From: a virus
Taxonomy: Duplodnaviria; Caudoviricetes
DNA length: 52,795 nucleotides
Reading direction: 5' to 3' (one strand)
Virus record (IMG/VR): IMGVR_UViG_3300037756_000059
Span: 1 to 52,795 of that record
Made by a program: the position numbers and the translations under genes. The notes below the pieces were generated by a model. That model was not told the origin of the DNA, searched no databases, and saw nothing but the letters and a program-made list of their open reading frames with translations. This document shows, in pieces, positions 3,230 to 31,676 of this stretch; the first letter of the stretch is position 1; each line of letters starts with the position of its first letter.

Positions 3230-5095
3230 TTACAGTTCGTTCATCCGCCGCGTCTGGACCGAGGCGTTGGCGTCGCCGGCCTGGTTGAGGCTGGACATCA
3301 GCATCTGCAGGCCGCCCGGCGGAGCGGCGCCACCGCCAGGTGCGCCGCCGGGGGCGGCCCCCTGCGGTGTGGCGCCCAGCTCCTGCATGGCGGCCTCGAT
3401 GGGGTTATTGGCCGCGACCTGCTGCTGTTGCGCCTTCTGGGCCTCCAGCTCTTCCTTGGTCGGCTCCAGCGCCTTGATCAGGGCCTCGACGTTGCTCAGG
3501 CCCCTGGCGCGGTTCTTGTGCCAGCGAGCCAGCTGCCGCAGCATCTGCGTCGGGTCCTGGCCCATCTGGGCCATGGCCGGGAACGAGGCGGCCCACTGCT
3601 GGATGCCCGCCTTGAGCGCGTCGTCGGCGTCCTCGTCGTCGACGGCCTTGGCCAGATCGTCGGCCGAGGCGTTGAACGCCTTCGCGTACTGTTCGCGCAC
3701 CACGCGCCGAGGGATCTCCTTGTCGCCGCGCAGCTGCAGGGCGAAGATGAGGCCCCGCTGGGCGTCCATGCCGTAGGCCAGGCCGTACGACACCTTCACC
3801 GAGTAGTTGCCGGCGATGTCCTTGTCCGGCGTGTAGGACTCCACGAAGGGGGCGCCGTCGGCGTCACCCTCGATGTCCTGGTCCTTCTCCGGCCACAGCG
3901 CTTCGTCGAGGCGCAGCGCGTACGAGGAGGCGTCCTTGAGGACGATGGCGATCAGGTCCTGGTAGGTCTGGACCTGCGAGTCGATGGTGCCGAGCAGCTC
4001 CTTGACGCCCTGGCCGGTGATGACCGAGGCGTCGATGTTGCCCGAGCGTCCCTCGGGGAAGCGCGCAGCCGTGCGCGCCTCCTGCGCCAGGGCCTCGTTC
4101 TCGGCGAACACGCCCGGAGGCATGTCGAGCCGGACGCGTTCCACGGCGTTGGCGGCGGTGGAGTCCGTCTGGATCTTGGCGTTCGGGCCGTAGCGGAACT
4201 CGGTGACGTCCTTCGGCATGCGGATCGGGGCGTTGATGGACTTGTGCGCGGCCTCGATCGTGAACGTGGCCATGCGCGCGCGAGCCACCTGCACCCAGAG
4301 CGCCTGGTCGTAGTTGCCGGCGGCCGGGCCCTCGCCCCACCAGGGCAGCTCGGCCAGGAACACCGGCACGACGCCGGGCGTCGGGTTCGGCGCCGAGACG
4401 GTGGCTAGGCCGTCCTTGCCGGGCAGGAACATGCACATCTTGTGCTCGTCGTAGTACCGGACGACCTCGACCATCTCGTTGTCGGTGTTGGGGTCCCACG
4501 CCAGGTCGTAGATGCCCAGGCGGTCCACGCTCTTGCCGTACTTGATGCGGTACTTCAACTCGGGGAACTTGGCCACCAGGTCGGCCACGGACTCGTACCA
4601 GGACTCGAAGAAGGTGACGACCCGCCCGAAGGCGTCGGTCGTCCAGTAGGCGCCCTTGGGGCTCGCCGGCCGGAACTTGATGCGCTGCTCGTTGAAGTCT
4701 GCGGAGACCACGATGGCCAGGGCGCCGAACGAGACGAAGCGGTCGCAGGCCGTGTACATGCCCTTCTGCAGCCGGGAGCGGTCCATCATGTCGATGAGGA
4801 TGCGGGTCCGCTTGGCGGCCTGCTCGCGTGAGCCCGCGATGCCGGGCTTGCCGGCGCGGGCGTGCACCTCGGGGAGCTGCCCCAGCAGCTCGCCCAGGTC
4901 CCTGGCGGCCAGGTCGACGACGTTGGCCACGATCTGCTTGGGGAAGCGCTTGGGGAACAGGCCCGGCATGAGCTTGTCCACCTCGCCCGCGCGGGCCAGC
5001 GCGACGGTGTGGCAGCGCTCGTCGCGCGTGGCGAACCGGTGCTTGGCGTTGCCATACGCGGCAAGCAAGTCACCGTAGAACTCAACGTTTGCCAT
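3230..5095 (-). CDS. Portal protein
   Basis: ~620 aa, follows terminase with TGATG coupling; Q/P/G-rich low-complexity tail as in podovirus-type portals. Confidence 0.85.
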   Translation of the reverse strand: MANVEFYGDLLAAYGNAKHRFATRDERCHTVALARAGEVDKLMPGLFPKRFPKQIVANVVDLAARDLGELLGQLPEVHARAGKPGIAGSREQAAKRTRILIDMMDRSRLQKGMYTACDRFVSFGALAIVVSADFNEQRIKFRPASPKGAYWTTDAFGRVVTFFESWYESVADLVAKFPELKYRIKYGKSVDRLGIYDLAWDPNTDNEMVEVVRYYDEHKMCMFLPGKDGLATVSAPNPTPGVVPVFLAELPWWGEGPAAGNYDQALWVQVARARMATFTIEAAHKSINAPIRMPKDVTEFRYGPNAKIQTDSTAANAVERVRLDMPPGVFAENEALAQEARTAARFPEGRSGNIDASVITGQGVKELLGTIDSQVQTYQDLIAIVLKDASSYALRLDEALWPEKDQDIEGDADGAPFVESYTPDKDIAGNYSVKVSYGLAYGMDAQRGLIFALQLRGDKEIPRRVVREQYAKAFNASADDLAKAVDDEDADDALKAGIQQWAASFPAMAQMGQDPTQMLRQLARWHKNRARGLSNVEALIKALEPTKEELEAQKAQQQQVAANNPIEAAMQELGATPQGAAPGGAPGGGAAPPGGLQMLMSSLNQAGDANASVQTRRMNEL

Positions 5096-7041
5096 CAGTC
5101 CCACCACGAATCGTAGATGCCAGGGTCGTAGCCGTTCGGAATCCCGATCAGCTCTGTGTGCTGCAGCCGCTCATCCAGCTCGGTGTCGAAGTAGTCCCGG
5201 ACGAAGCCGGTGTCCTCGTCGCCCTTGTACGACACGATCAGCTCTCGAGCGCGGATCTCGGCGAACCACCAGGCCATCAGGATGTCGGTCTTGCCCTTGG
5301 TCTCGGGGAAGAACGTGGCCGCCTGCTCGACGAACTGGCGGACCTGCTCCTTGTACTTGGGATTCGGCAGCTCGATCTGGGCGTTGTCCTTGGCGATGAG
5401 GCCGGACATGCCCATGACCCCGGCGATCGGGTCCCACTTGTTCTTGCCGGAGGTCTGGTGCGGGGACAGGATGCAGCCCATGTTGGCCAGGTCGGTGACG
5501 ATCTCCCGGTCCTGCATGATCCAGTTGGACAGCAGGACGGATTCGACGCGCCACTCCTTGACGCTGTACAGCTTCGTCCACGGGATGATGGTGGCACGGA
5601 ACTGCACTGGGGTCATGTGCGCCCGGTTCTCGACGTCGAGCAGGTACCGGAAGGCCTCGGGACGGTGCACGCCGTACACCACGAACGCGGTGTGGCCAGA
5701 CGACGCCGGGTCGATGCCGCCGATCACGTACAGGTCGTCCATGGTGGGCCGCCCCCTGGCGGCCTCCGCCATCGAGGTGGTGAGCGGGCCGGGCTTGCGG
5801 TCCTTGTTGACCACGGCCATCAGCTGCTCGCGCGGGAAGATGGCCGCGTCCTCAAGGTCGCCCTGCTGGTAACCTTGGATCCAGGCGTGCTCGCCAACGA
5901 CGTCGCGTCGCTTGGCGAGGCGGGGCCCGGACCACATCTCGTAGGTGCCGTCCTCGGCGGGCTCGGCGTCGTCGCCGAGCTGCGGCTGGTTCGAGCGGGG
6001 CCACAGCGTGACCCAGTCCCTGGGGTCCTCGGCGTACTCAAGCACCGCAGGCTGGGCGAAATACGTCCAGGCCGGCTTTACACCAGGGGCGTACCTGTCG
6101 GGGTTTCGCAACTCCTTGTACAGGTCGATCTGCGCCACGCGGGAGCCGATGACCAGGACCTTGCCCATGGCGCCCACGCGGGTGGCCACCATGCGAGTTA
6201 TCCAGTTGAACTGCTTGTCAACCTCAAGATAGTTTTCAGTATCAACGCAGTCGTCGAGGATGAACACGGTGCCGCGCTTGCCGTAAATCTGGCCCTTGAT
6301 CCCGACCGCCTGGACGGTCGGGTCCTTGGCCATCTGCTTGCGCAGCTTGGGTCCGAAGCGGATCCGGTACTGCGACCACTCGGTGCAGGCCTTCTCGTAG
6401 CCCTCCTCGGGACCGAAGTCGTCCTGCAGGTCCGAGAACGTGGGGTTCGTCAAGAACTCCTTGATGCCGGACAGGAAGTCCGCCGCCATCTCCCGGTTCT
6501 TGGAGACGATGGTGATCAGCTGTTCGGGGTCCTTGAGGATCTTCCAGGTGACCCAGGCCATGGTGACCGTGGAGGTCTTGGCGTGCTCGGGCGGCGTGTT
6601 GACGATGATGTGCGTCCACTCGGCCGGCTCCCAGATCTGGCTGGGGTGCAGGTCGCGGGGCTCGCGGTTCTCCAGGACGTCGAACCACTGCAGCTGGTGC
6701 CAGTGCAGGCGCCAGCCCAGGTACCTCTCGCAGAACTCGGGGAAGTCGGGGACCTCCGGGCGGCCCTCCGTGCGAGCCCGAGACAGGCGACCGCTCACGC
6801 GGTCGGCCTGCTCCTTGAACTCGGGGTAGCGTTGCCGCCACTTCTCGTACGTGGACTCCGAATAGCCGACGAGGCGCATGGCCTCGGCCACCGTGTGGCC
6901 CTCGGAGCGGCGCTCAAGGAACTTGGCCTGGGCCAGCTCGCGGTTCAGCCTCGTGTGCTTGGTGCCGCCCGGAGCCCCACCGTTCTCGGTGGGCTCCTTG
7001 CGGCGCGGGCCACGCTCGGCTTCGACGCGAATCCTAGCCAT
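5095..7041 (-). CDS. terL: Terminase large subunit with N-terminal HTH-like extension
   Basis: Walker A-like PPEHAKT, Walker B FILDD, YQQ motif, nuclease GIDPA and C-terminal TDILMAWWF. Confidence 0.92.
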   Translation of the reverse strand: MARIRVEAERGPRRKEPTENGGAPGGTKHTRLNRELAQAKFLERRSEGHTVAEAMRLVGYSESTYEKWRQRYPEFKEQADRVSGRLSRARTEGRPEVPDFPEFCERYLGWRLHWHQLQWFDVLENREPRDLHPSQIWEPAEWTHIIVNTPPEHAKTSTVTMAWVTWKILKDPEQLITIVSKNREMAADFLSGIKEFLTNPTFSDLQDDFGPEEGYEKACTEWSQYRIRFGPKLRKQMAKDPTVQAVGIKGQIYGKRGTVFILDDCVDTENYLEVDKQFNWITRMVATRVGAMGKVLVIGSRVAQIDLYKELRNPDRYAPGVKPAWTYFAQPAVLEYAEDPRDWVTLWPRSNQPQLGDDAEPAEDGTYEMWSGPRLAKRRDVVGEHAWIQGYQQGDLEDAAIFPREQLMAVVNKDRKPGPLTTSMAEAARGRPTMDDLYVIGGIDPASSGHTAFVVYGVHRPEAFRYLLDVENRAHMTPVQFRATIIPWTKLYSVKEWRVESVLLSNWIMQDREIVTDLANMGCILSPHQTSGKNKWDPIAGVMGMSGLIAKDNAQIELPNPKYKEQVRQFVEQAATFFPETKGKTDILMAWWFAEIRARELIVSYKGDEDTGFVRDYFDTELDERLQHTELIGIPNGYDPGIYDSWWD

Positions 7042-8809
7042 GGTCAAAGATCTCCTTGAGCTTGCGCTCCTTGACGTGATCCGGGTCTGGATTGTGCACG
7101 GTGTTCAGCGGCGGACGCTCCAGCCCGATCAGGTTCGCCTCGTACTCCAGCGCCTGCGAGCGCGTGGGGAACGACTCGGCGATCGACATCGTCACGCCCT
7201 TGCGCGCCAGGTGCTTGCGCTTCTTGGAGTCCAGGTGCTCCGTCGCGCGGCGCAGCCCGTCGTTCGAGATGCCCGCGTAGATGAGGGCGTTCCCGGCCAG
7301 CGCGTAGCGCCACTCGTACAGGATGTGCTCCTGCTCCTCCAGGCGGGCGGACCACTTGTCGGCCATGAACTCGTCGCGAGTCTCGACCTCCGGCGGGAGG
7401 ACGCCCTGCGCGATCGTGATCGTGTCGGCGTCCGGCACCCAGACCGAGCGGAAGCGCTCGTAGCCGGCGCCGAACTCCAGGTGCGCGTAGCCCATGCCCG
7501 GCGTCTCGTCCGAGATGTTCGAGCAGCGGGCCCCGAGCCCTTCGGCGTCCTGGCCGAGCACCACGCCGGTCATGGCCGGCGACTCGGTGCGCAGTACCAG
7601 CTTCTGCACGAACATGCGTCGCAGCGTGCCGACCGTGTCCTGCTGCGGGACCTGAGTCGACGCCCACACGGACACGCCAGCGGCGCGGCCCTCGTTGAGG
7701 ATCCGGCGCAGCGGGTTCATGCGGTTGTTGGCCAGTACGTTGTCCAGAGCCAGCAGCTCGTCGAGGATCAGTATCTCGTAAGGGGCCTCGGGTGTGGGCA
7801 CGTGGACACGCGCAGTACCGTCGATCGCCGCGAGGCGACCAAGCATGAGGGTACTGAGCCGGGCGATCATCTGCTCGGCGGGCTTGCCGGGATCGTCGCA
7901 GTACTCGTGAACGAGGGGCGAGCCCTTGAGTACCGAGAACTCGGCCCCACCCTTGGGGTCGAGTACCCAGAGCCGGAACGGTACCTGGCCGGCGATGAGG
8001 GACGCGATCAGCGCCCACACGGTACTGGACTTGCCCGCGCCCGACATCCCGACCACCAGCAGGCTCTTGCCGAGCGATACTGTGGCGGGAGTGCCGGACT
8101 CGGTGAGCCCGAAGGCCACCTTGCCCGTGGGCGCTAGCGGAAGGCGCGCCAGTGGCACTGTCTGAGCGAGGGGGTCCGCCCAGCGGAAGTGCAGCGACCC
8201 CACGGACGGGATCTCGGACGGCACCACCTGCACGAAGCGGCAGTCCTCTATGGAAGTGGCGATCTTGACGCTGTTCCGCGCCACAGTCTCGATGGGCACG
8301 CCCACGTTCATGGTGTTGATGCGCGCGGTGAGACCGAACTCGGTGAACTCCAGCTCGTTGAGGATCGGGATCTCGGCGTCGGCGCCCTGACCCATCATGA
8401 GCCCGGCGTTCTCGGCGGCGTTGGGCCAGTCCCGGTTCAAGATCCGGTAGCGACGGATCCGCTCGCGGAGAGCGTGGCGCCAAACTAGCCCCCCCTTCGG
8501 GGGGGCTAAAGCCCTTTTAATTATCTTCCGCCATCGCCAAACGCGCAATACCCCCAGGGGTAGCGCCCATACCCCCCCGAGGTACACCAGGTACCCAAGG
8601 GGGGTAGGGCCTACCGCTACGACCCAGCCGCGAGTGATCACGAGCGCCAGTAGCAACAGGCCAGCGATCGACGCCGGACGGCTGATCAGCTTCCAGCCGT
8701 AGTACGCGATGCCCCAATAGATCAAGTTGCCCTGTATCCAACCCACCAGGTTGGCCCACAGGTGATCTTGCGGCCGCGTAGAGGCCTTGACAGTGTGAAC
8801 AACGCCCAT
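7034..8809 (-). CDS. TraB/FtsK-SpoIIIE-like DNA translocase with N-terminal TM helices and a C-terminal GIY-YIG-like domain
   Basis: Hydrophobic N-terminus; GMSGAGKS, LDPKGGAEF, ILILDE, STQ; C-terminal LYEW..IYAGISND..RR.TEH..FPTR.QALEYE..LI..ERPPLN. Confidence 0.88.
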   Translation of the reverse strand: MGVVHTVKASTRPQDHLWANLVGWIQGNLIYWGIAYYGWKLISRPASIAGLLLLALVITRGWVVAVGPTPLGYLVYLGGVWALPLGVLRVWRWRKIIKRALAPPKGGLVWRHALRERIRRYRILNRDWPNAAENAGLMMGQGADAEIPILNELEFTEFGLTARINTMNVGVPIETVARNSVKIATSIEDCRFVQVVPSEIPSVGSLHFRWADPLAQTVPLARLPLAPTGKVAFGLTESGTPATVSLGKSLLVVGMSGAGKSSTVWALIASLIAGQVPFRLWVLDPKGGAEFSVLKGSPLVHEYCDDPGKPAEQMIARLSTLMLGRLAAIDGTARVHVPTPEAPYEILILDELLALDNVLANNRMNPLRRILNEGRAAGVSVWASTQVPQQDTVGTLRRMFVQKLVLRTESPAMTGVVLGQDAEGLGARCSNISDETPGMGYAHLEFGAGYERFRSVWVPDADTITIAQGVLPPEVETRDEFMADKWSARLEEQEHILYEWRYALAGNALIYAGISNDGLRRATEHLDSKKRKHLARKGVTMSIAESFPTRSQALEYEANLIGLERPPLNTVHNPDPDHVKERKLKEIFDHG

Positions 8810-8841
8810 GATGATCAATGCCCCCGGATGCTGGGAGTGCG

Positions 8842-9651: not shown

Positions 9652-9678
9652 CGGATGCTGCGGATGCTGCGGATGCTG
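9652..9678 (-). repeat. 3 x 9-bp tandem repeat (CAGCATCCG on minus strand); a further copy at 8825-8833
   Basis: cggatgctg x3 read directly. Confidence 0.85.
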
Positions 9679-9958
9679 GTTCCCTGCCGCCGGGCATCCG
9701 TTCCGGCGGCAGGGAGGTGTGGTGTCCGGGGACGTTGTCGCCGAACAGGGAGGAGCGGCGGCGCGGGCAGGGGCCCGCGCGCGCTCCGCGCGAAAAAATG
9801 GTGCCGGCGCCTGCAAAGCACTCTCGGTCCGCGTCTTCTAGGAGCGCGGCGACCCCCAGGGAGCCGCTGTCGAGTCTCGCGGCTTGCCGAGTGCTCTTTG
9901 AGACGCACCGCTTCTAAGTAAGAGGGTGCAACGAGCAATTCTGTTTCGCTTCCAGGCA

Positions 9959-9974: not shown

Positions 9975-10431
9975 CAAGGCCTGACCTGCAATGATGTCCA
10001 AGATTCCCGGTGTCCAGCGCATTCCCGGAGAGGGAGTATTGTCTCTCCGCCGCCGGGATTAAGCATGCCGGGGTCAAGATCACCGAGCAATGCACCTCCG
10101 GGCAGGCCATACCTCACAGGGGTAGGGCATGGTACCCCACGGGGGCATGGTGCTGGGCACTCGAGGCCGGCATACCCTGGGAGGGTATGCCTATTCGGCA
10201 GGCTATGCGCTCAATGCGCCACGCCGGGCCCTGTTCTTGGCTCAATGCGGCAGGGTTGCGGGAATCTGGGCACGCAGGGCCCTTGACTGTGTGCCCCGCT
10301 GCCCCGCCTGCCATGCACGCACGGCACTCGCCGAGCGCACGGACGCTGCTGCAGCGCACGGCTTGCGCCGCTCCCGCTGCCTGCCGAACAGGCGGCGCCG
10401 TTGATCCTTTGTCTCACATGCCGGACAGGCC

Positions 10432-10459
10432 TTGACTCTGGCCCGGATCGGAGTAGTGT
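10432..10459 (+). promoter_or_regulatory. Candidate housekeeping-sigma early promoter
   Basis: TTGACT-N16-TAGTGT upstream of the first rightward gene. Confidence 0.5.
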
Positions 10460-10665
10460 GGTCAGTAGCTAGACAACTCCACAGAGGCCAGGACACACCG
10501 ACCTCGGTAAGTTTTCGATCATCGGCACAGAGTCGAAGCGCACGCCTCCGCCCACGCGGAGAGGCAGCAGTTGAAAGGTCGGGTACTGGCGCCAGGATCT
10601 CAGGGCACGCGATGGACGCCTGCAAGGGCAGGCGCCTTTCGTGGCAGTGAGAGAGGACACAGACC

Positions 10666-10854
10666 ATGGACATGTGGACAATCACGCAGGACGGCAGGCG
10701 CCTGACTATCAAGTGCAACGACTTGGCGGTCGATGTCGTGGAAACGACCGTGCAGGACGCCGTGACCGTGGCATGGGCACACGCTCACCACCGCGCAGGA
10801 TGGACGGGGCGAGCCGCCGTCCTCCATGTGGACCCCAACCTTCGTAACATCTGA
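10666..10854 (+). CDS. Hypothetical early protein
   Basis: 62 aa, GAGAGGA SD. Confidence 0.7.
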   Translation: MDMWTITQDGRRLTIKCNDLAVDVVETTVQDAVTVAWAHAHHRAGWTGRAAVLHVDPNLRNI

Positions 10855-10869
10855 GAGAGGAACGGAACC

Positions 10870-11211
10870 ATGGACGATTACACGAGCAAGCTGGCCAGCA
10901 TTGAGCGCGACGCGCAAGGCACGGCCGACGCCGTGCGCCGCGAGCACGAGCGCAAGGCCAGAGTCAAGGCCCTGGCGGTCGGGACGACCGTGTACGTCAA
11001 GCCATTCGACATGTTCGGCGAGGTGCTCGCCACAGACGGCTACGCCGTTCAGGTCGCCACGCCGGACGGCTCGCGCCGTTTCTGGCGCATTGTGGACCTC
11101 GAGTCGGTCGGGCCCGTGGTGCCGAGTCATGACGCGGCCCACCATGAGCGTTTGGAGCGCGAGACGGGCAGAGAGTGCCCGGACTGCGTACCGTGGTCTA
11201 ACCCCAATTGA
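10870..11211 (+). CDS. Hypothetical early protein
   Basis: 113 aa, GAGAGGA SD. Confidence 0.75.
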   Translation: MDDYTSKLASIERDAQGTADAVRREHERKARVKALAVGTTVYVKPFDMFGEVLATDGYAVQVATPDGSRRFWRIVDLESVGPVVPSHDAAHHERLERETGRECPDCVPWSNPN

Positions 11212-11265
11212 GCACTCATGGTGCGAGCCGGGCCCGTGGGCCCGGCTCGTGCCACGCTTGCTTAA
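11208..11265 (+). other. Intergenic two-stem hairpin (family member, divergent sequence)
   Basis: TTGAGCA/TGCTTAA lower stem, internal loop, 16-bp upper stem with G-U pairs; 58 nt. Confidence 0.7.
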
Positions 11266-11294
11266 GATGAGCACGCGAGAGAGGACAAGAGACC

Positions 11295-11906
11295 ATGAGC
11301 GAGTACGAGCACAACCGCGTGCCCTTCCCCGAGTACGCGTGGGCACTGTCGCGGGCGTGGGACACGCGTCCCGAGGTATCGGCAAGCGTCACGGACTATC
11401 GCGACGCGGCCATGATCTACGACGGCGCGGCATACCTCGCCGCAGACCGTCAATCAGGATTCTTAATCAGTGGCACTGGTGAGCTTGCCGGCGTGTTCTC
11501 CACGATGCGCGGTCGCGGTGATTCCATCATGCGGGACGCGCTGCACTACGGTGCGACGCACCTAGATTGTTTCGACGGTTACCTGCCGACGTTCTACGCG
11601 CGGCACGGCTTCCGCGAGACGCGACGCGTACCGAACTGGGCACCCAGCGGTCCCGACGTTGTCTACATGGCACTGTCGACGGACCGCGTAGACCCTGCCG
11701 TGCACCCTGACTCCCCGGAGGCGTGGGCGAAAGCACTTGCCGACCTCGCGGAGGCGGCGGACACGGGCCCGTCGGACTTCGAGGACTCCGCTACGATCAA
11801 GGCTACGGCGATCCGCGCGGCCCTGGAAGCCGAACTAGACGCGGCCCTAGAAGAGGGTGACGGTCTGATCGACGCGATCATGTCAGTGATCGAGAGAGTT
11901 ATCTGA
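11295..11906 (+). CDS. GNAT-like acetyltransferase-fold protein with acidic C-terminal extension
   Basis: ELAGVFS..RGRG, LDCFDGYLPTFYARHGF.E..R..NW...GPDVVYM. Confidence 0.6.
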   Translation: MSEYEHNRVPFPEYAWALSRAWDTRPEVSASVTDYRDAAMIYDGAAYLAADRQSGFLISGTGELAGVFSTMRGRGDSIMRDALHYGATHLDCFDGYLPTFYARHGFRETRRVPNWAPSGPDVVYMALSTDRVDPAVHPDSPEAWAKALADLAEAADTGPSDFEDSATIKATAIRAALEAELDAALEEGDGLIDAIMSVIERVI

Positions 11907-11964
11907 GTGTCGCAGTGTGGCGGTCGGCAGGATTGCCGACCGCTGCGCTGGTCAACTCAGGCCA
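11903..11964 (+). repeat. 62-bp dispersed hairpin repeat, copy 1
   Basis: CTGAGTGTCGCAGTGTGGCGGTCGGCAGGATTGCCGACCGCTGCGCTGGTCAACTCAGGCCA, identical at 12411 and 14256. Confidence 0.95.
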
Positions 11965-11985
11965 GCCGAGAGAGGAGAAACGATC

Positions 11986-12177
11986 ATGTACGTTCACACC
12001 ATACGCCCGCGAGACGTGGGCCAGACCGTCGTGCGCAGTATCGTCACGCGTGGCACGTTGTACGTGGGCGACGCCATAGGCACCGTCCAGCAGCGTGACG
12101 TTGGGAAACGCTGCTACCTGGTCGACGGCGTGCTGCAGGTCGAGAATGACGAGCAACTCGCCGCGCGTCAACACTGA
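11986..12177 (+). CDS. Hypothetical early protein
   Basis: ATG within GAGGAGAAACGATCATG; MYVHTIRPRD. Confidence 0.75.
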   Translation: MYVHTIRPRDVGQTVVRSIVTRGTLYVGDAIGTVQQRDVGKRCYLVDGVLQVENDEQLAARQH

Positions 12178-12188
12178 GGAGCAAGATC

Positions 12189-12401
12189 ATGCGAAAGAGC
12201 ACCGTCGATCGGTTTACGGTCGTACACGCCATCGAAAGGCGTCACGGGACACGCTATCATGTGCGCTGCGTGGTTTGCCGGCAATTCCTCTATAAGCGCG
12301 CGATCAGCCAAGAGTCGCTAGCACGCCTAGACGCGGAACTGCACGTGAGACTGTTTCATGCTGCGGAGTCTGCGGCGATTGAGTCCCTAGACGAGGATTG
12401 A
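12189..12401 (+). CDS. Hypothetical protein, possible Zn-binding (CxxC, HxxxxH)
   Basis: 70 aa, GAGGAG SD. Confidence 0.7.
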   Translation: MRKSTVDRFTVVHAIERRHGTRYHVRCVVCRQFLYKRAISQESLARLDAELHVRLFHAAESAAIESLDED

Positions 12402-12410
12402 GCCCGGTCA

Positions 12411-12472
12411 CTGAGTGTCGCAGTGTGGCGGTCGGCAGGATTGCCGACCGCTGCGCTGGTCAACTCAGGCCA
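12411..12472 (+). repeat. 62-bp dispersed hairpin repeat, copy 2
   Basis: Identical to 11903-11964. Confidence 0.95.
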
Positions 12473-12492
12473 GCCGAGAGAGAGGAACGATC

Positions 12493-12762
12493 ATGTACGT
12501 CAACACCGGAGCGAAGATCAATGGGCAGCGCGTGCGCACAAAGAAAGAGCTGCGCGAGGCACTCGCCGTCGATCCCGAGAGCGTCACGTTCGACGTGACC
12601 TCACTGCACACCGAGCTGGCAGGTCGCACCCTGGCAGCCGTCGACGTGCTCGCCGAGCCGCGCTGGGTCTTGCTGGTCGTGGGCCCGGACCCCTACACTC
12701 GGCGCGGCTGGTACGCGAGCGTAGCGGCCGCGCGTGCACGTGACCGCTTGACGGTCAGGTGA
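12493..12762 (+). CDS. Hypothetical early protein
   Basis: ATG after GAGGAACGATC; MYVNTGAKING...VVGPDPYTRRGWYA. Confidence 0.75.
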   Translation: MYVNTGAKINGQRVRTKKELREALAVDPESVTFDVTSLHTELAGRTLAAVDVLAEPRWVLLVVGPDPYTRRGWYASVAAARARDRLTVR

Positions 12763-13067
12763 CGGAGAGGAGCAAGGCCGTGACATACGAAGAGGACGGC
12801 GCCGCCCCACGGTGCCCGCGATGCGACGATCTACTGCCAGATCCGCGAGAGGTGTGCTGCGTGACTGCTCCGCACCCATCCACACAGAGCAGCGCGATCA
12901 AGGATCTGACGCTGCCCGGACCGAGGGACTGGGCACGGGTCGAACGCGTGGAGCGCGAGCAAGACCCCCGCCTTATCCGAGTCGTCAAGATCGCCACGTC
13001 CACCGTGGCCGGGGAGGACGACGTGACCTACACCTACCGCACGGTGCGGCGCATTCCGCCGTGTTGA
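12759..13067 (+). CDS. Hypothetical protein
   Basis: GTGA overlap with previous gene, 102 aa. Confidence 0.6.
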   Translation: MTERSKAVTYEEDGAAPRCPRCDDLLPDPREVCCVTAPHPSTQSSAIKDLTLPGPRDWARVERVEREQDPRLIRVVKIATSTVAGEDDVTYTYRTVRRIPPC

Positions 13068-13079
13068 CCGAAGGGAAAC

Positions 13080-13138
13080 CTGAGTGATTATGGTGGCGTC
13101 CAGCCTTGACGGGCTGGGCACCGCCATGTTCTACTCAG
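13080..13138 (+). other. Intergenic two-stem hairpin (family member, divergent upper stem)
   Basis: Same CTGAGT/ACTCAG closing stem as the repeat but a different upper stem; 59 nt. Confidence 0.75.
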
Positions 13139-13175
13139 TAGAACACGAAGTGACGCGACGAGAGGAGAAATGATC

Positions 13176-13757
13176 ATGCGTCCACTAACCCGGAATATCG
13201 TACGCACGTACTTGCGTGCTACGCCCGAACAGCACGCCCAGGGCGTGGCATGGTACCAGAATGCGCACGAGCTTGCGTGCGAGCTGGAAGACGTTTGGGC
13301 CAGCACGCCGGGCCCCGTTGAGCGCGGCGCAGGTGTCATTGCCGCACTCTCGCCCACGATTCAATGGGAACGGAATGCCGCACTCGCTCGCAAGGCGTAC
13401 CTTGCCGGCGTGGCGAGCGGAACCTACTCCGCAAACACGCGCAAGGCCACGGCCATTCTGCAGGGTGCCGACCCCGTCGACGTTCTGCGCGGCCCCAAGG
13501 TCACCGCATTCTACGCGGGCATCATCGCCCCCGAGGGCACCGACGTTGTGTGCGTGGACCGCCACGCGCATGATGTCGCCGTGGGCCGACGCTGCACCGA
13601 CGAGGAGCGCGGCGCGCTCACTTCCAAGCGCGGCTACGCCACCTTCGTGCGCGCCTACCGGCGCGCCGCCGATCAGCTCGGAATGCCCGCAAACCACTTG
13701 CAGGCCATCACTTGGCTCGTGTGGCGCGACGAGTACCGTTGGACGCGTGCATCATGA
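13176..13757 (+). CDS. Conserved phage protein, probable HhH/DNA-glycosylase-like fold
   Basis: G.AWY..AH, GVIAALSP...W..N, GPKV..FY, VCVDRHA, LQAITW..WR. Confidence 0.6.
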   Translation: MRPLTRNIVRTYLRATPEQHAQGVAWYQNAHELACELEDVWASTPGPVERGAGVIAALSPTIQWERNAALARKAYLAGVASGTYSANTRKATAILQGADPVDVLRGPKVTAFYAGIIAPEGTDVVCVDRHAHDVAVGRRCTDEERGALTSKRGYATFVRAYRRAADQLGMPANHLQAITWLVWRDEYRWTRAS

Positions 13758-13966
13758 TCCGCGTCTATCGCGTACGGTACGCAGGCGAAACGCGCGTTGA
13801 TCATCTGCTGGAACTAGACGACGCACGCGCACGTGCGCGTGCCGAGCGACGCGCGCAAGGACGGCGCCTCGTGCACCTGTCAGAGATGATCATGGTGCAC
13901 GATGCACTCCACTACCGACAGATTCTAGACCATCCCGGAGAGGGGGAACGATCATGCTTTACATGA
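13754..13966 (+). CDS. Hypothetical protein
   Basis: ATGA overlap with previous gene. Confidence 0.55.
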   Translation: MIRVYRVRYAGETRVDHLLELDDARARARAERRAQGRRLVHLSEMIMVHDALHYRQILDHPGEGERSCFT

Positions 13967-14259
13967 ACGACTACGACCTGGCGTACGCTGCGCGCCGCTT
14001 CGGACGCGGCTGGTCCAGCAACACGCCCAATCGCGCGGCGCTGGTCGCGCACGTCGACGCGCTGCGTCGTTGGGCCGACGACAATAGCGACGGCTGGGCC
14101 TACTGGCCCAAGCCGGCGCGCGCGGCACGCCGTGCAATGGAGTTGATCCAGAGCACGACCAATGCAGCGAACTACGCGCAAGAGCGCGAGGACATCACAG
14201 ATCGCGAGTTCCGCGAGGCCTTGCGTCCAATCAAGGCGTTCTACAAGCGCCACGGCTGA
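13954..14259 (+). CDS. Hypothetical early protein
   Basis: 101 aa, start-associated motif upstream; stop codon lies in repeat copy 3. Confidence 0.8.
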   Translation: MLYMNDYDLAYAARRFGRGWSSNTPNRAALVAHVDALRRWADDNSDGWAYWPKPARAARRAMELIQSTTNAANYAQEREDITDREFREALRPIKAFYKRHG

Positions 14260-14317
14260 GTGTCGCAGTGTGGCGGTCGGCAGGATTGCCGACCGCTGCG
14301 CTGGTCAACTCAGGCCA
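14256..14317 (+). repeat. 62-bp dispersed hairpin repeat, copy 3
   Basis: Identical to 11903-11964. Confidence 0.95.
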
Positions 14318-14343
14318 AGCCCGAGAGGAGAGGGAAAGTGACC

Positions 14344-14523
14344 ATGACCGTGTATCGCTCGCCGAGCGGACGCCTGCACCTAACTACATTCTGTGGCGCT
14401 TCGGGCCCACGCTCGAAAATGCGGCGAGTCAAGATCACCGAACAGCAATTTGCTGAGGCTAACCGCTGTCGATGTCTGTCGAATTACCACGACGACTCGT
14501 GGCGGAAGCACATTCCACGATGA
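14344..14523 (+). CDS. Hypothetical protein
   Basis: 59 aa after GAGGAGAGG SD. Confidence 0.65.
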   Translation: MTVYRSPSGRLHLTTFCGASGPRSKMRRVKITEQQFAEANRCRCLSNYHDDSWRKHIPR

Positions 14524-14545
14524 CACCTAGAAGGAGGAAACGATC

Positions 14546-14716
14546 ATGAAGTGTGCCATGATCACGGACGAGAGACTTGATCTTGAGTTTGCGTACGTGA
14601 CCTACGACGACTCGTGCAGGGACCTTTACGGGCCCTGGCATTTGTGCCGCAGACCACGAGGCCACGACGGCGAACACGCCGCAGGCTACGGCACCAACCG
14701 CGTTCGCTGGAGTTGA
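14546..14716 (+). CDS. Hypothetical Cys/His protein (not in ORF track)
   Basis: GGAGGAAACGATCATG start; MKCAMITDERL..C..HLC...GHDGEH, 56 aa. Confidence 0.7.
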   Translation: MKCAMITDERLDLEFAYVTYDDSCRDLYGPWHLCRRPRGHDGEHAAGYGTNRVRWS

Positions 14717-14718
14717 TC

Positions 14719-14964
14719 ATGAGCCCCTTCGACGCTACGCACGTGCAGGCGCTGCAACTGCACAATGACGTGTTGCGCCAACTCAGCGGGGACCTGGAGG
14801 AGCAGGTTGCGATACTCCGCGAGGTGGCGATGCACCTCACCGAGACGGCAAACCGCTGGGCACCAGTCGCCGAGCAACGAGCACAAGCGCGCGGTCACGT
14901 GCCAGGCGCGTCCGTGGTCGCCCACGCGGCCCGTCGCCGCTTCGAGGAGGAGCGGCTAGTCTGA
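14719..14964 (+). CDS. Hypothetical protein
   Basis: ATG 2 nt after previous stop. Confidence 0.6.
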   Translation: MSPFDATHVQALQLHNDVLRQLSGDLEEQVAILREVAMHLTETANRWAPVAEQRAQARGHVPGASVVAHAARRRFEEERLV

Positions 14965-14971
14965 CCAAGAT

Positions 14972-15033
14972 CCTTACGTAACGCATGGCGCACGGGGACC
15001 TCCTCTCCCCCGTGCGCCGTGTGAGTCGTAGGG
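14972..15033 (+). other. Intergenic two-stem hairpin (family member)
   Basis: CCTTACG/CGTAGGG lower stem, 3x3 internal loop, 16-bp upper stem with G-U pairs. Confidence 0.7.
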
Positions 15034-15037
15034 CTCA

Positions 15038-15046
15038 TGCTACAAT
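15038..15046 (+). promoter_or_regulatory. Candidate extended -10 promoter
   Basis: TG-C-TACAAT. Confidence 0.45.
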
Positions 15047-15082
15047 GGGTAGCGAACGACTCGACCGAGAGGAGCACCCACC

Positions 15083-15349
15083 ATGTACAGCACGATTTCC
15101 CAGATCCAGCGCCGGCACGAGGGCCACTGGTTCAGCGCCGACACGATGCGCTTCTTCGGAAGCAAGATCGAGAGCGGCGTGATCAATGGCCGCTACTTCG
15201 TCTCGTCCGAGGACAACTTCGACCGCACCGCGCGATTCTACTCGGTGCGCGTCGCAGACGACGAGGGCGAGATTGGCACGTGGGGCGAGTTTCAGGCCTA
15301 CGAGACGCTGGCCGAAGCCCGCGCCGCCGCAGAGGCGGCGCCGGCATGA
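15083..15349 (+). CDS. Conserved small phage protein
   Basis: 88 aa; HWFS.DTMRFFGS...YFVSSE..R.YSVR; GAGAGGAG SD. Confidence 0.8.
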   Translation: MYSTISQIQRRHEGHWFSADTMRFFGSKIESGVINGRYFVSSEDNFDRTARFYSVRVADDEGEIGTWGEFQAYETLAEARAAAEAAPA

Positions 15350-15612
15350 CACCGGAGCAGGCCAGTGCTGCCGCCACGGTGGCACTGGCCTCCGACCTAG
15401 AGATGATCTTGCGCCACCGGGCCGACGCGGCCGGGCGCGTGGGGGTCAACGAGATTCTGCGCGTCCTCGACGAGTACCGCGAGGCCGCCGCACCCGAACT
15501 GGAGGCACTTGTGAGGGACGACAACGCGAGCCCGGACCTGATCCTCGGGATTCCGGCCGACGAACTGGGAGGCTGGCTCTGGGAAGAGTGGCCCGAGCTG
15601 GAGGCACCATGA
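15346..15612 (+). CDS. Hypothetical protein
   Basis: ATGA coupling. Confidence 0.7.
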   Translation: MTPEQASAAATVALASDLEMILRHRADAAGRVGVNEILRVLDEYREAAAPELEALVRDDNASPDLILGIPADELGGWLWEEWPELEAP

Positions 15613-15812
15613 ACACTTCGACAGCCCTGCACCTGCAGCCCGGCGACACGATCACCGCAAAACAGGGCGCGCCCTCCGCGCGCCACTACGCGGTGATCAA
15701 GATCCAGGGCGGACCCAACACGCCGAGCGTGGACATCTTCGTTCAGGATCCTGACCAGCTCGCCGCCATCGCGACCGCGTGCGACCGGGCCCTTGTGGAA
15801 TGGCCCAAGTAG
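15609..15812 (+). CDS. Hypothetical protein
   Basis: ATGA coupling, GGAGG SD. Confidence 0.7.
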   Translation: MNTSTALHLQPGDTITAKQGAPSARHYAVIKIQGGPNTPSVDIFVQDPDQLAAIATACDRALVEWPK

Positions 15813-15882: not shown

Positions 15883-15953
15883 GGGGGCGAACGGCAAGCG
15901 GTGCAGCGCCACGACGGGCTCGCCGAACCTGGGTTCGATTCCCAGCGCCTCCA
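15883..15953 (+). ncRNA. tRNA/tmRNA-like small RNA (acceptor stem with G3-U70, canonical T arm, no canonical anticodon arm)
   Basis: GGGGGCG...CTGGG-TTCGATT-CCCAG-CGCCTCC-A in an intergenic gap. Confidence 0.6.
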
Positions 15954-15987
15954 CGCCAAGCAAGATCACTACAACGAATGGAGCACC

Positions 15988-16227
15988 ATGGCGAAGGCCA
16001 CCATCCCCGAGCCGCAGCCGGTTACGCTGCTGCTCTCGCGCGAAGAGGCCGAGGATCTGCGCGGCCTGCTGTTCGGCCACGTGGGCATGAACAGCGCCTC
16101 CGCAAGGCTGACGGCCATATCCGACGCCCTGGGGTTCATCGGCGTTCAGCCGACGAAGTTCATCGTCAGCGACGACCGAGGGCTCGGAGGCAACGTAATC
16201 ATCCTGCAACGAATGGAGACCGCATGA
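15988..16227 (+). CDS. Hypothetical protein
   Basis: GGAG SD, MAKATIPEP. Confidence 0.7.
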   Translation: MAKATIPEPQPVTLLLSREEAEDLRGLLFGHVGMNSASARLTAISDALGFIGVQPTKFIVSDDRGLGGNVIILQRMETA

Positions 16228-19286: not shown

Positions 19287-19524
19287 GATGATCGTTTCCC
19301 TCCTTGAGTGCATTGCTGCCCTGAGTCTACGACCCGCCCCGGAAGGGGGGCGGGGGCGACACGCCGAAGCCGGTGAAACGATCTTGCCTCGCGCGTGCAA
19401 TGCTCTTAGCACTTAGCTGGCCCCCCTTTAGGGGGGGCCAGCGCTTTGAGTTCTTAGAGGCTTAGACGCTAAGAGGCCGCGACACGCCGTTCAACGCTGC
19501 ACCGTGTCGCCGTTCGGCGATCCG

Positions 19525-30982: not shown

Positions 30983-31191
30983 ACTACCGCAAGGGTGACC
31001 GCGTCCTGATCCTGGAGGGTCGGGACGACGGTGTACCCTTGGAGCACTGCCTGGCCAGGCCCCAAGTCGGCATCGTCACCCGCACCGGGCTCACCGAGTG
31101 CGTGTGGGTGCGCGGCGAGGGCTGGGGCATGCTCAAGGGCCAGGAGATCGAGCAACTGCTGGAGCCCGAAGAACTCAGGAGGCTGGACTGA
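30979..31191 (+). CDS. Hypothetical protein (SH3/KOW-like start)
   Basis: GTGA coupling; YRKGDRVLI. Confidence 0.6.
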   Translation: MNYRKGDRVLILEGRDDGVPLEHCLARPQVGIVTRTGLTECVWVRGEGWGMLKGQEIEQLLEPEELRRLD

Positions 31192-31633: not shown

Positions 31634-31676
31634 GAAAAAGGCCCCATTCCGCAACCAGCGGAATGGGGCCTTTTTC
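31634..31676. terminator. Bidirectional intrinsic terminator
   Basis: GAAAAAGGCCCCATTCCGC-AACCA-GCGGAATGGGGCCTTTTTC between the convergent arms. Confidence 0.92.

What the first reader, a model, noticed from the sequence alone, without database searches (positions are those of the whole stretch)
11208..15033. Family of structure-conserved, sequence-divergent ~58-62 nt hairpins punctuating the early genes
Seen: six elements (11208-11265, 11903-11960, 12411-12468, 13080-13138, 14256-14313, 14972-15033) share one design: a 6-7 bp lower stem, a 3-5 nt internal loop on each side, and a 16-17 bp upper stem. Each starts at or just after a stop codon and precedes the next RBS. Four different sequences give the same fold, and nearly all non-Watson-Crick pairs are G-U on the + strand, which points to function as plus-strand RNA or ssDNA. 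The 13080 copy keeps CTGAGT/ACTCAG but has a replaced upper stem. Established analogues are the T7 early RNase III sites. Inference: an mRNA processing/stabilising code, or attC-like cassette boundaries.
Basis: partly seen in the sequence, partly recalled or inferred. Interest (0 to 1): 0.8.

Follow-up and report, generated by a model that had tools for sequence, protein, structure and literature searches.

The report
Hairpins punctuating a phage early operon
Six strong RNA hairpins of one shared design sit in every long gap between the early genes of an uncultured phage, in the slots where related Streptomyces phages carry self-cutting ribozymes or tRNA-like elements, so they probably mark where the long early message is cut and its ends protected, though no cutting has been shown.

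Summary
Six 58-62 nt hairpins (three identical) lie at the stated coordinates. Each has a 6-7 bp lower stem, a 3-4 x 3-4 nt internal loop and a 16-17 bp upper stem. They fill 6 of 6 intergenic gaps over 40 nt in the plus-strand early operon and 0 of 7 short junctions. All fold better on the plus strand. The one close relative found keeps hairpins at syntenic places, with compensatory changes.

New context: five cultured Streptomyces phages sharing early genes carry type II hammerhead ribozymes in the same slots. A sixth carries tRNA-like minihelices. The window and its relative carry only the hairpins.

A review reports that Streptomyces RNase III cuts its rpsO-pnp intergenic hairpin at a [4/4] internal loop.

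My best reading is that these are host RNase III-type cut-and-protect sites in the early mRNA (confidence 0.5). Rivals are U-less attenuators, translation elements like the cluster K ESAS, and recombination linkers. The attC reading fails its defining features, although the hairpins do coincide with gene-swap junctions. No RNA data could be obtained.

Earlier unchecked notes of this scan report the same kind of element in other phages.

The parts
11208..11265 (+). Hairpin 1: lower stem 6-7 bp, internal loop about 4x4, upper stem 16 bp, loop CGUG. The TGA stop of gene 10870-11211 lies inside the lower stem.
   Evidence: CM R1 match 15.3 bits, full length.
11903..11960 (+). Hairpin 2: CUGAGU / GUCG / 17-bp upper stem / GGAU / GUCA / ACUCAG. 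The TGA stop of gene 11295-11906 lies inside the lower stem.
   Evidence: (87.9 bits).
12411..12468 (+). Hairpin 3, identical to hairpin 2. It starts 10 nt after the stop of gene 12189-12401. The homology block shared with the relative begins 6 nt before it.
13080..13138 (+). Hairpin 4: CUGAGU/ACUCAG lower stem. The upper stem is 8 bp, then a C.A mismatch, then 9 bp, with loop UGAC. It lies directly upstream of the DUF7178 gene.
   Evidence: (30.4 bits).
14256..14313 (+). Hairpin 5, identical to hairpin 2. The TGA stop of gene 13954-14259 lies inside the lower stem.
14972..15033 (+). Hairpin 6: 7-bp lower stem, 3x3 internal loop, 16-bp upper stem, 10-nt loop. It is the last of the array.
   Evidence: (18.9 bits).
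11961..11988 (+). Example of the conserved tail of the unit: GGCCAGCC, then a purine-rich ribosome-binding site, then ACGATC and ATG. The same tail follows hairpins 3 and 5. The ACGATCATG start context recurs at other genes.
   Evidence: the D3 family extends past the hairpin; start contexts.
10429..10456 (+). Candidate early promoter (TTGACT, 16 nt, TAGTGT) upstream of the operon that holds the hairpins. Read by eye; the scan did not list it.
   Evidence: Sequence. A similar motif sits upstream of the relative's operon. Inference only.

Best explanation
The six elements are cis-acting hairpins in the plus-strand polycistronic early mRNA. They divide it into segments of one to three genes. Most likely each is a site for a double-strand-specific host endonuclease of the RNase III type, which cuts at or next to the 3-4 x 3-4 internal loop. 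The 16-17 bp GC-rich upper hairpin would then stay on the upstream fragment as a cap against 3' exonucleases. The downstream fragment would begin about 10 nt before its ribosome-binding site.

Shown: the structures, their strand bias, their placement, their conservation by compensatory change, and the occupation of the same slots by known RNA-cleavage elements in related phages.

Inferred: transcription through them, cleavage, the enzyme, and the effect on stability and expression.
For: 1. Structure and placement. Folds are strong. 6 of 6 long gaps hold a hairpin and 0 of 7 short junctions do. The design detector gives 8 plus-strand and 0 minus-strand hits, against about 1 expected.

2. An RNA-level or single-strand signature. 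There are 13 G.U pairs against 2 A.C mismatches in the four distinct window copies. All 19 hairpins compared, in the window and in relatives, fold at least as well on the sense strand.

3. Conservation of pairing. In the base region, 95 of 97 cells are paired across 7 distinct sequences, and 0 of 500 shuffles reach this. A tandem U.G/G.U is kept in 7 of 7 and 6 of 7. In the syntenic pair W13080/L004:5912, the inner helix shows 4 two-sided changes, 3 one-sided, 2 unchanged and 0 broken (read). W11903 against L004:4855 has 6 differences: 4 in the apical loop and 2 wobble-compatible changes in stems.

4. A covariance model built from one sequence type alone finds all six window copies and all four copies in the relative, full length, at the right coordinates.

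5. Slot equivalence. A Hammerhead_II ribozyme sits directly upstream of the DUF7178 gene in 5 of 5 cultured Streptomyces phages examined, with 7-9 sense-strand hammerheads at or above Rfam's gathering score per early region in four of them and 5 in Caelum (10 counting weaker hits). Amela instead has 8 tRNA-like minihelix candidates; an alignment of these with one window element shows covariation. The window and its relative have hairpins and no hammerhead.

6. [quoted passage not shown]

7. None of the six is followed by a U-tract, while the genome has U-tailed terminator-like hairpins at 19416-19442 and 31634-31676.
Against: No RNA ends, cleavage or expression data exist for this phage. The host is unknown; an actinobacterium is inferred from a weak WhiB match and from relatives that infect Streptomyces.

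The upper stem is about 1.5 times longer than in the T7 sites folded here (9-12 bp), and the lower stem is short.

Only one close relative was found, so covariation rests on 7 distinct sequences. The count of pairs with two-sided change in the base region is not significant on its own (57 of 500 shuffles reach it).

R1 scores of the two weakest members (15.3 and 18.9 bits) overlap unrelated hits of 19-20 bits.

Slot equivalence is an argument by analogy. The three element types could share a role other than cleavage.
Confidence: 0.5

Rival explanations
1. The hairpins are factor-independent terminators without a U-tail, or partial attenuators, or pure barriers to 3' exonucleases, and are never cut. 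They would grade expression along the operon, as proposed for the early region of phage phiC31.
For: They are very stable GC-rich hairpins directly after stop codons. A 1995 paper describes rho-independent terminators without poly-U tails in the phiC31 early region; I saw only its title in a reference list. The paper PMC11373665 suggests a 17-base stem after a mycobacteriophage gene as a terminator candidate (passages).
Against: No convincing promoter follows any hairpin. One search lists only 9-of-12 matches, one of which overlaps hairpin 4. Efficient termination would therefore silence all downstream early and replication genes. The genome uses U-tailed terminator-like hairpins where operons end. 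PMC3993855 (abstract) reports that mycobacterial RNA polymerase needs a U-tract. A plain terminator does not explain the conserved internal loop, lower stem and tandem G.U, nor the ribozymes in the same slots of relatives.
Confidence: 0.2
2. The hairpins are translation-level elements of the SAS/ESAS kind. The hairpin insulates the conserved ribosome-binding site from upstream sequence. Alternatively it brings the stop codon at its 5' base next to the following start region, so that ribosomes are handed on.
For: The geometry is close to the cluster K ESAS: imperfect 17-bp inverted repeats with a spacer of 4-13 bp, just upstream of a conserved 13-bp start-associated sequence, confined to non-structural genes (PMC3203893, passages). 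Here a conserved tail and start context follow the hairpins. The stop codon lies in the lower stem in 6 of 10 copies of the window and its relative.
Against: Other gene pairs in the same operon are coupled simply by overlap or short spacers, so a hairpin is not needed for coupling. The cluster K ESAS were later read as SigA-type promoters with operator-like repeats (PMC11373665, passages). I saw no such hexamers inside these hairpins; this was a check by eye. Self-cleaving ribozymes in the same slots of relatives point to cleavage rather than ribosome handling.
Confidence: 0.12
3. The hairpins act at the DNA level. They would be conserved linker sequences at which phages exchange gene blocks by recombination, small mobile palindromic elements, or protein-binding sites. 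The RNA fold would be incidental.
For: Three identical copies lie within 2.4 kb. The hairpin-plus-RBS unit (about 90% identical) is the only homology between unrelated gene blocks of the window and the relative, and one homology block starts 6 nt before hairpin 3. In the relative, two copies share about 40 nt of upstream coding sequence, and there is a 42-nt tandem duplication nearby.
Against: The G.U over A.C bias and the sense-strand energy advantage are not expected for duplex DNA sites. Syntenic copies keep the fold while the sequence is replaced, which recombination linkers would not need. attC features are absent, and no integrase or transposase domain was seen in the 39 distinct ORFs scanned with Pfam. 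All copies have one orientation and lie only between sense-strand genes.
Confidence: 0.1
4. The hairpins are a new class of self-cleaving ribozyme that replaces the hammerheads.
For: They occupy the same slots as hammerhead ribozymes in relatives. The base region and the tandem G.U are conserved.
Against: The internal-loop letters are not conserved between types (GUCG/GUCA, CU/CU-like, GAU/UUCU, UAA/AGU). The apical loops vary freely. Nothing resembles a catalytic core. There is no Rfam match.
Confidence: 0.03

Closest known systems
RNase III processing signals of the phage T7 early transcript (R0.3, R0.5, R1, R1.1, R1.3; names and positions recalled)
   Same: Both are arrays of hairpins of about 50-60 nt in the gaps between early genes of one polycistronic mRNA. 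Both have an upper and a lower stem separated by an internal loop (T7 gaps folded). A review states that single-strand cleavage at such irregularities leaves a 3' hairpin that stabilises the RNA (PMC3867540, passage).
   Different: The T7 upper stems folded here are 9-12 bp and the folds are -17 to -23 kcal/mol. The T7 loops are asymmetric and the five sites share sequence. The window's upper stems are 16-17 bp, the folds are -40 to -43 kcal/mol, the loops are symmetric 3-4 x 3-4, and the tips differ in sequence. Cleavage is not shown here.
Streptomyces coelicolor rpsO-pnp intergenic hairpin cut by RNase III (AbsB)
   Same: It is an intergenic hairpin in an actinobacterial polycistronic mRNA with a [4/4] internal loop, and the enzyme cuts on both sides of that loop (PMC10126417, passage). 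Three of the sequence types here have a 4x4 loop.
   Different: It is a host autoregulatory site present as a single copy. I could not fetch its sequence, so stem lengths and loop letters were not compared.
Extended start-associated sequences (ESAS) with SAS of cluster K mycobacteriophages and cluster EF Microbacterium phages
   Same: These are imperfect 17-bp inverted repeats with a short spacer, immediately upstream of an unusually conserved ribosome-binding region. They occur in one orientation, only among non-structural genes, and their consensus differs between subclusters (PMC3203893 and PMC7302621, passages).
   Different: ESAS have no described lower stem or internal loop and are not tied to the upstream stop codon. 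They were later read as promoter plus operator DNA (PMC11373665). Their function is still called untested (PMC12699233).
Arrays of type II hammerhead ribozymes between phage and prophage genes
   Same: They occupy the same slots in phages sharing the acetyltransferase, DUF7178 and dNMP kinase early genes. Tandem hammerheads that cut polycistronic RNAs are described in PMC3088659 (passages).
   Different: They are self-cleaving with a conserved catalytic core. The window has none.
Integron attC sites
   Same: They are imperfect palindromes of similar length at gene-cassette boundaries, conserved in structure rather than sequence, and active as a single strand.
   Different: Here there are no R''/R' consensus letters, no extrahelical bases and no integron integrase. 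The better-folding strand is the sense strand.

Membership tests
T7-type RNase III processing signal | Lies between cistrons of a polycistronic early mRNA, on the sense strand | tested here: met
   6 of 6 long gaps in the + strand operon hold a hairpin. The sense strand is the better-folding strand. Transcription itself is inferred.
T7-type RNase III processing signal | Hairpin with upper and lower stems separated by an internal loop | tested here: met
   T7 gaps were folded for comparison; proportions differ, with the upper stem 16-17 bp against 9-12 bp.
T7-type RNase III processing signal | Cut by RNase III in vivo and in vitro | not testable with these tools
   No RNA run was listed. This needs bench work.
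T7-type RNase III processing signal | Sequence homology to the T7 sites | tested here: not met
   Comparing the T7 folds by eye shows no shared letters beyond generic pairing. There is no Rfam match.
Actinobacterial RNase III substrate (rpsO-pnp type) | [4/4] internal loop in a GC-rich intergenic hairpin, as reported for the mapped cleavage site | tested here: met
   The loop is 4x4 in the 11903 type and in L004:4518, and near 4x4 in 11208. It is 3x3 or 3x4 in 14972, 13080 and L004:5912. The reference feature comes from the review passage. The host hairpin's sequence was not compared.
Intrinsic (rho-independent) terminator | GC-rich hairpin followed at once by a U-tract | tested here: not met
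   The 8 nt after the six hairpins are GAUGAGCA, GGCCAGCC (twice), UAGAACAC, GGCCAAGC and CUCAUGCU. None is listed by the terminator scan.
Cluster K ESAS/SAS | 17-bp imperfect inverted repeats with a short spacer, directly upstream of a conserved start-associated sequence | tested here: inconclusive
   The geometry fits. The SAS consensus quoted is not present, the elements here have extra parts, and the function of ESAS is itself unsettled.
Integron attC | R''/R' core sites (RYYYAAC ... GTTRRRY; consensus recalled) | tested here: not met
   The lower stems are CTGAGT/ACTCAG, TTGAGCA/TGCTTAA and CCTTACG/CGTAGGG.
Integron attC | Integron integrase next to the array | tested here: not met
   No integrase domain was found in the 39 distinct ORFs scanned with Pfam. 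Not all of the roughly 76 ORFs were scanned.
Hammerhead or other catalogued ribozyme | Match to a catalogued catalytic core | tested here: not met
   Rfam gives 0 hits at gathering scores over the whole window. Over the hairpins there are only chance-level matches (PtaRNA1 22.6-22.9 bits against a cut-off of 47).

The most novel reading that the evidence does not exclude
Early operons of a broad group of actinophages must be diced into short mRNAs, and the cutting mark is an exchangeable module. The same intergenic slots carry a self-cleaving hammerhead, a tRNA-like minihelix (for RNase P or Z), or this two-tier hairpin. The hairpin's 4x4 loop and invariant tandem U.G/G.U would be a dedicated recognition site for actinobacterial RNase III. 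The hairpin-plus-RBS unit would then also serve as the portable joint at which these phages swap early genes.
Probability: 0.35. Interest if true: 0.75.

Novelty: new variant of a known kind. Interest (0 to 1): 0.6.

Why it matters
If these hairpins are cut, the finding gives a defined and compact substrate class for actinobacterial RNase III. According to the review passages seen, only a few of that enzyme's mRNA cleavage sites have been mapped. It would also show that phages of high-GC hosts use at least three interchangeable ways to cut their early message at the same slots.

That would make two questions directly testable: why phage early operons need dicing, and what the still unexplained start-associated repeats of mycobacteriophages do.

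It also matters for annotation. Several hammerheads in deposited Streptomyces phage genomes lie under short ORFs annotated as 'hypothetical protein'.

There is a practical use as well. Such elements are natural insulators between cistrons and could be used in Streptomyces engineering.

Tried and rejected
- RNA evidence: the look-up of sequencing runs for window 10400-15400, kind rna, listed no RNA holder.
- Close relatives:
  - megablast against phages found nothing;
  - an exact 34-nt hairpin core found 0 viral contigs;
  - the core with a free loop found only the one relative;
  - a degenerate base-region pattern found that relative plus L030, which is a chance match inside a repetitive coding region;
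  - the DUF7447 protein found no viral relative;
  - metagenome loci for DUF7178 were all at or below 50% identity.
- MAFFT could not align all types structurally. The covariance model was therefore built from one sequence type only, no second model was made, and the tip of the upper stem was compared by eye and by script. The register-based pair table overcounts two-sided changes and is not used as evidence.
- Sliding-window folding energy alone does not single out the elements in this 67% GC genome.
- Fetching a Streptomyces rpsO-pnp hairpin failed. The control genomes give no handles.
- PMC306685 and PMC3165504 are not held.
- ssDNA-promoter and operator readings: I saw no -35/-10 hexamers in the stems (by eye). 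The only promoter-like match near an element is a 9-of-12 match overlapping hairpin 4.
- Literature searches for these hairpins, or for hammerhead arrays in Streptomyces phages, listed nothing specific. Supplements are closed, so the hammerhead lists of PMC3088659 could not be checked.

Full report
WHAT THE WINDOW IS. The window is an IMG/VR virus record of 52,795 nt. Its first 300 nt at least recur at 50990-51289 (D1), and other repeat families keep the same 50,989-nt offset to the end of the window. One genome unit is therefore about 50,989 nt. GC content is 66.9%. Plus-strand genes run from about 10.7 to 31.2 kb, and the rest is on the minus strand.

Pfam finds the following: a T7-type head-tail connector (weak), a DnaB-like ATPase, a Toprim primase domain, a dNMP kinase, an amidase, a WhiB domain (26.5 bits) and DUF7178.

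The nearest annotated relatives are Streptomyces phages of the subfamily Arquatrovirinae. DUF7178 is 41-46% identical, and 190 nt of the acetyltransferase gene are about 70% identical. An actinobacterial host is likely but not shown.

Free energies are -40.3 to -43.4 kcal/mol, z-scores are -7.3 to -8.4, and 0 of 200 shuffles match any of them. Three copies are identical and sit in a 92-nt repeat that also covers the following ribosome-binding site. Five of the six are the longest local inverted repeats in the window.

A detector I wrote for the design finds 8 sites on the plus strand and none on the minus strand. In 60 shuffles the mean is 1.0 and the maximum 5, both strands together. The two extra hits, at 9670-9728 and 30990-31041, differ in loop geometry and context, and I do not count them as members.

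In the operon from 10666 to 15349, every gap longer than 40 nt holds one hairpin (6 of 6). None of the 7 short or overlapping junctions does. The upstream stop codon is the TGA inside the lower stem in three copies. The next start codon follows after 24-49 nt, preceded by a purine-rich ribosome-binding site.

STRAND AND LEVEL OF ACTION. Minus-strand folds are weaker by 1.9 to 10.8 kcal/mol. The four distinct window sequences have 13 G.U pairs, against 2 A.C and 1 other single mismatch. All 19 hairpins compared, in the window and in relatives, fold at least as well on the gene-sense strand. This fits a sense-strand RNA, or formally single-stranded DNA. It does not fit a duplex DNA site.

RELATIVES AND COVARIATION. 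Only one close relative turned up (L004/L009, DUF7178 65% identical). It carries four hairpins of the same design at syntenic places.

Its two copies of the 11903 type differ from the window copy at 6 and 5 positions. Four of these are the whole apical loop. The rest are U.G to C-G and G-C to G.U changes.

The hairpin upstream of DUF7178 keeps the first 8 bp of the upper stem and a C.A mismatch. Its 9-bp inner helix differs at 7 pairs: 4 on both sides, 3 on one side, and none broken (read from the folds).

The hairpin after the gene-2 homologue keeps the base but has an entirely different, fully paired tip.

On an alignment of the 7 distinct sequences that is in register for the base region, 95 of 97 cells pair (0 of 500 shuffles reach this). 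Four of 14 pairs change on both sides, but 57 of 500 shuffles reach that count, so it is not significant alone. A tandem U.G/G.U is kept in 7 of 7 and 6 of 7 sequences.

A covariance model built from the 11903 type alone recovers all six window copies and all four relative copies, full length. The two weakest members, at 15.3 and 18.9 bits, score no better than a few unrelated hits.

In 21 more distant loci (126,936 nt) the detector finds 13 sense-strand and 3 antisense hits. Several lie directly beside DUF7178 genes. The general design is therefore widespread, though heterogeneous.

THE SAME SLOTS IN RELATED PHAGES. This is the main new evidence. In Streptomyces phage Caelum, the gaps between early genes hold type II hammerhead ribozymes. 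Five are at or above Rfam's gathering score and 10 have E below 0.1. All are on the sense strand. Spernnie, phiScoe1, TinaBelcher and Amethyst carry 8, 7, 9 and 7 such hits at or above gathering.

In 5 of 5 of these phages, a hammerhead lies directly upstream of the DUF7178 gene. That is the slot filled by hairpin 4 in the window and by L004:5912-5972 in the relative.

Phage Amela has no hammerhead. It has 8 candidate copies of a tRNA-like minihelix: a 5-bp acceptor-like stem, an 11-nt linker and a T-arm. The alignment used these 8 plus one window element. Of 99 cells, 94.9% are paired, 6 of 11 pairs change on both sides, and 0 of 500 shuffles reach the covariation score. One copy follows the acetyltransferase gene, which is the slot of hairpin 2.

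The window and its relative have no hammerhead. The window does have one tmRNA-like tRNA-domain element in a later gap of the same operon.

So three kinds of compact RNA element occupy equivalent intercistronic positions, and each genome mostly uses one kind. Two of the three kinds are established RNA-cleavage signals.

MECHANISM. I take the hairpins to be the third kind of cleavage signal: a substrate for a double-strand-specific endonuclease. A review of Streptomyces RNases states that S. coelicolor RNase III cuts the rpsO-pnp intergenic hairpin on both sides of a [4/4] internal loop (PMC10126417, passage seen). A review of RNase III states that irregularities at the target site can restrict cutting to one strand and leave a stabilising 3' hairpin (PMC3867540, passage).

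The conserved part of the family is the lower stem, the loop position and the first 8 bp above it. The tip varies freely. This is what one expects if recognition and cutting occur near the loop and the tip only supplies stability.

After a cut, the upstream segment would end in a hairpin of about -35 kcal/mol. The downstream segment would start just ahead of its ribosome-binding site.

None of this is shown experimentally. No RNA run could be listed for the region.

RIVALS.
- Terminators without U-tails are known by title from the phiC31 early region (reference list; the paper is not held). Here, however, nothing would restart transcription downstream. The genome also has U-tailed terminator-like hairpins where operons end.
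- The cluster K ESAS/SAS repeats have strikingly similar geometry. Their function is still open, and they were recently read as promoter plus operator. They are a resemblance, not an explanation.
- A DNA-level role as recombination joints has real support as a by-product. The hairpin-plus-RBS unit is the only homology between unrelated gene blocks of the two phages. It does not explain the strand bias or the compensatory changes.
- The attC reading fails each defining feature tested.
- A new ribozyme is unlikely because no loop letters are conserved.

COMPARISON WITH T7. I folded the five early intergenic gaps of T7. They show the same two-tier layout. Their upper stems are 9-12 bp, the folds are -17 to -23 kcal/mol, the loops are asymmetric, and the sites share sequence. 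The window's elements work like these sites in layout and placement but are not sequence relatives.

EARLIER NOTES OF THIS SCAN. After I had found the hammerhead and tRNA-like slots myself, a look-up showed that other agents had reported hairpin families in ribozyme or tRNA slots of other uncultured phages. One note pointed to the rpsO-pnp site. I followed that lead as far as the review passage. These notes are unchecked AI notes on other DNA, and I do not count them as evidence.

VERDICT. This is a real, non-random family of plus-strand RNA hairpins conserved in structure. It is most likely a set of RNase III-type cut-and-protect marks. It is a new variant of a known kind, and its function is untested.

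Noticed in passing
window 15883-15956 (+): A 74-nt look-alike of the tRNA-like domain of tmRNA. It has an acceptor stem with G3.U70 and a T-arm, and both ends of the tmRNA model are matched with the middle missing. Rfam RF00023 gives 40.6 and 32 bits against a cut-off of 47. ARAGORN calls nothing. The element lies in the 175-nt gap between genes 15609-15812 and 15988-16227 of the same operon. Its last 25 nt are identical to the 3' ends of tmRNA genes in 7 of 8 bacterial loci checked, none of them actinobacterial.
   Followed up: partly
L026 (Caelum), L032 (Spernnie), L033 (phiScoe1), L034 (TinaBelcher), L035 (Amethyst): The early regions of these cultured Streptomyces phages carry arrays of 5-9 type II hammerhead ribozymes at or above Rfam's gathering score, all on the sense strand. 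Some lie under short annotated ORFs. In Caelum, gp79 (L026 3277-3369) covers the hammerhead at 3291-3355. Such ORFs may be annotation artefacts.
   Followed up: partly
L031 (Amela) around 1209-1250, 2282-2323, 2890-2931, 3686-3727, 4251-4292, 4949-4990, 5624-5665; also 1550-1591 inside an annotated CDS: A repeated tRNA-like minihelix of about 42 nt sits in the early intergenic gaps. It has an acceptor-like 5-bp stem, a linker with GG, and a T-arm with a GGTTCGAGTCC-type loop. Covariation is good. There is no Rfam family for it; the best match is mascRNA at 21.9 bits.
   Followed up: partly
window starts at 11986, 12493, 13176, 13954, 14546, 16475: The translation start context is unusually conserved: a purine-rich site, then ACGATC (or ATGATC), then ATG. 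This recalls the start-associated sequences of cluster K mycobacteriophages.
   Followed up: no
L004 4770-4860 and 5520-5567: In the relative, two hairpin copies share about 40 nt of upstream coding sequence, so two unrelated genes end in the same 13 codons. One of them also has a 42-nt tandem duplication of that stretch. This suggests recombination or slippage next to the hairpins.
   Followed up: no
L005 and L006 (for example L006 2082-2120, 3183-3213, 4407-4441, 10719-10751): These contigs of 90-108 kb hold a different repeated sense-strand hairpin, with a conserved loop (TCTTTCACACCGGGAGA-like) and variable stems. It occurs alongside hammerheads.
   Followed up: no
window 9670-9728 (+), 19416-19442, 31634-31676: There are other strong hairpins. 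One is a 15-bp stem with a 9-bp lower stem, upstream of the early promoter region, with a different design. The other two are terminator-like hairpins with U/T runs. The one at 31634-31676 is a perfect 19-bp stem flanked by A and T runs, between the plus-strand and minus-strand gene blocks.
   Followed up: no
window 7034-8818 (-): A 594-aa protein combines an FtsK/HerA-type ATPase domain with a C-terminal GIY-YIG nuclease domain.
   Followed up: no
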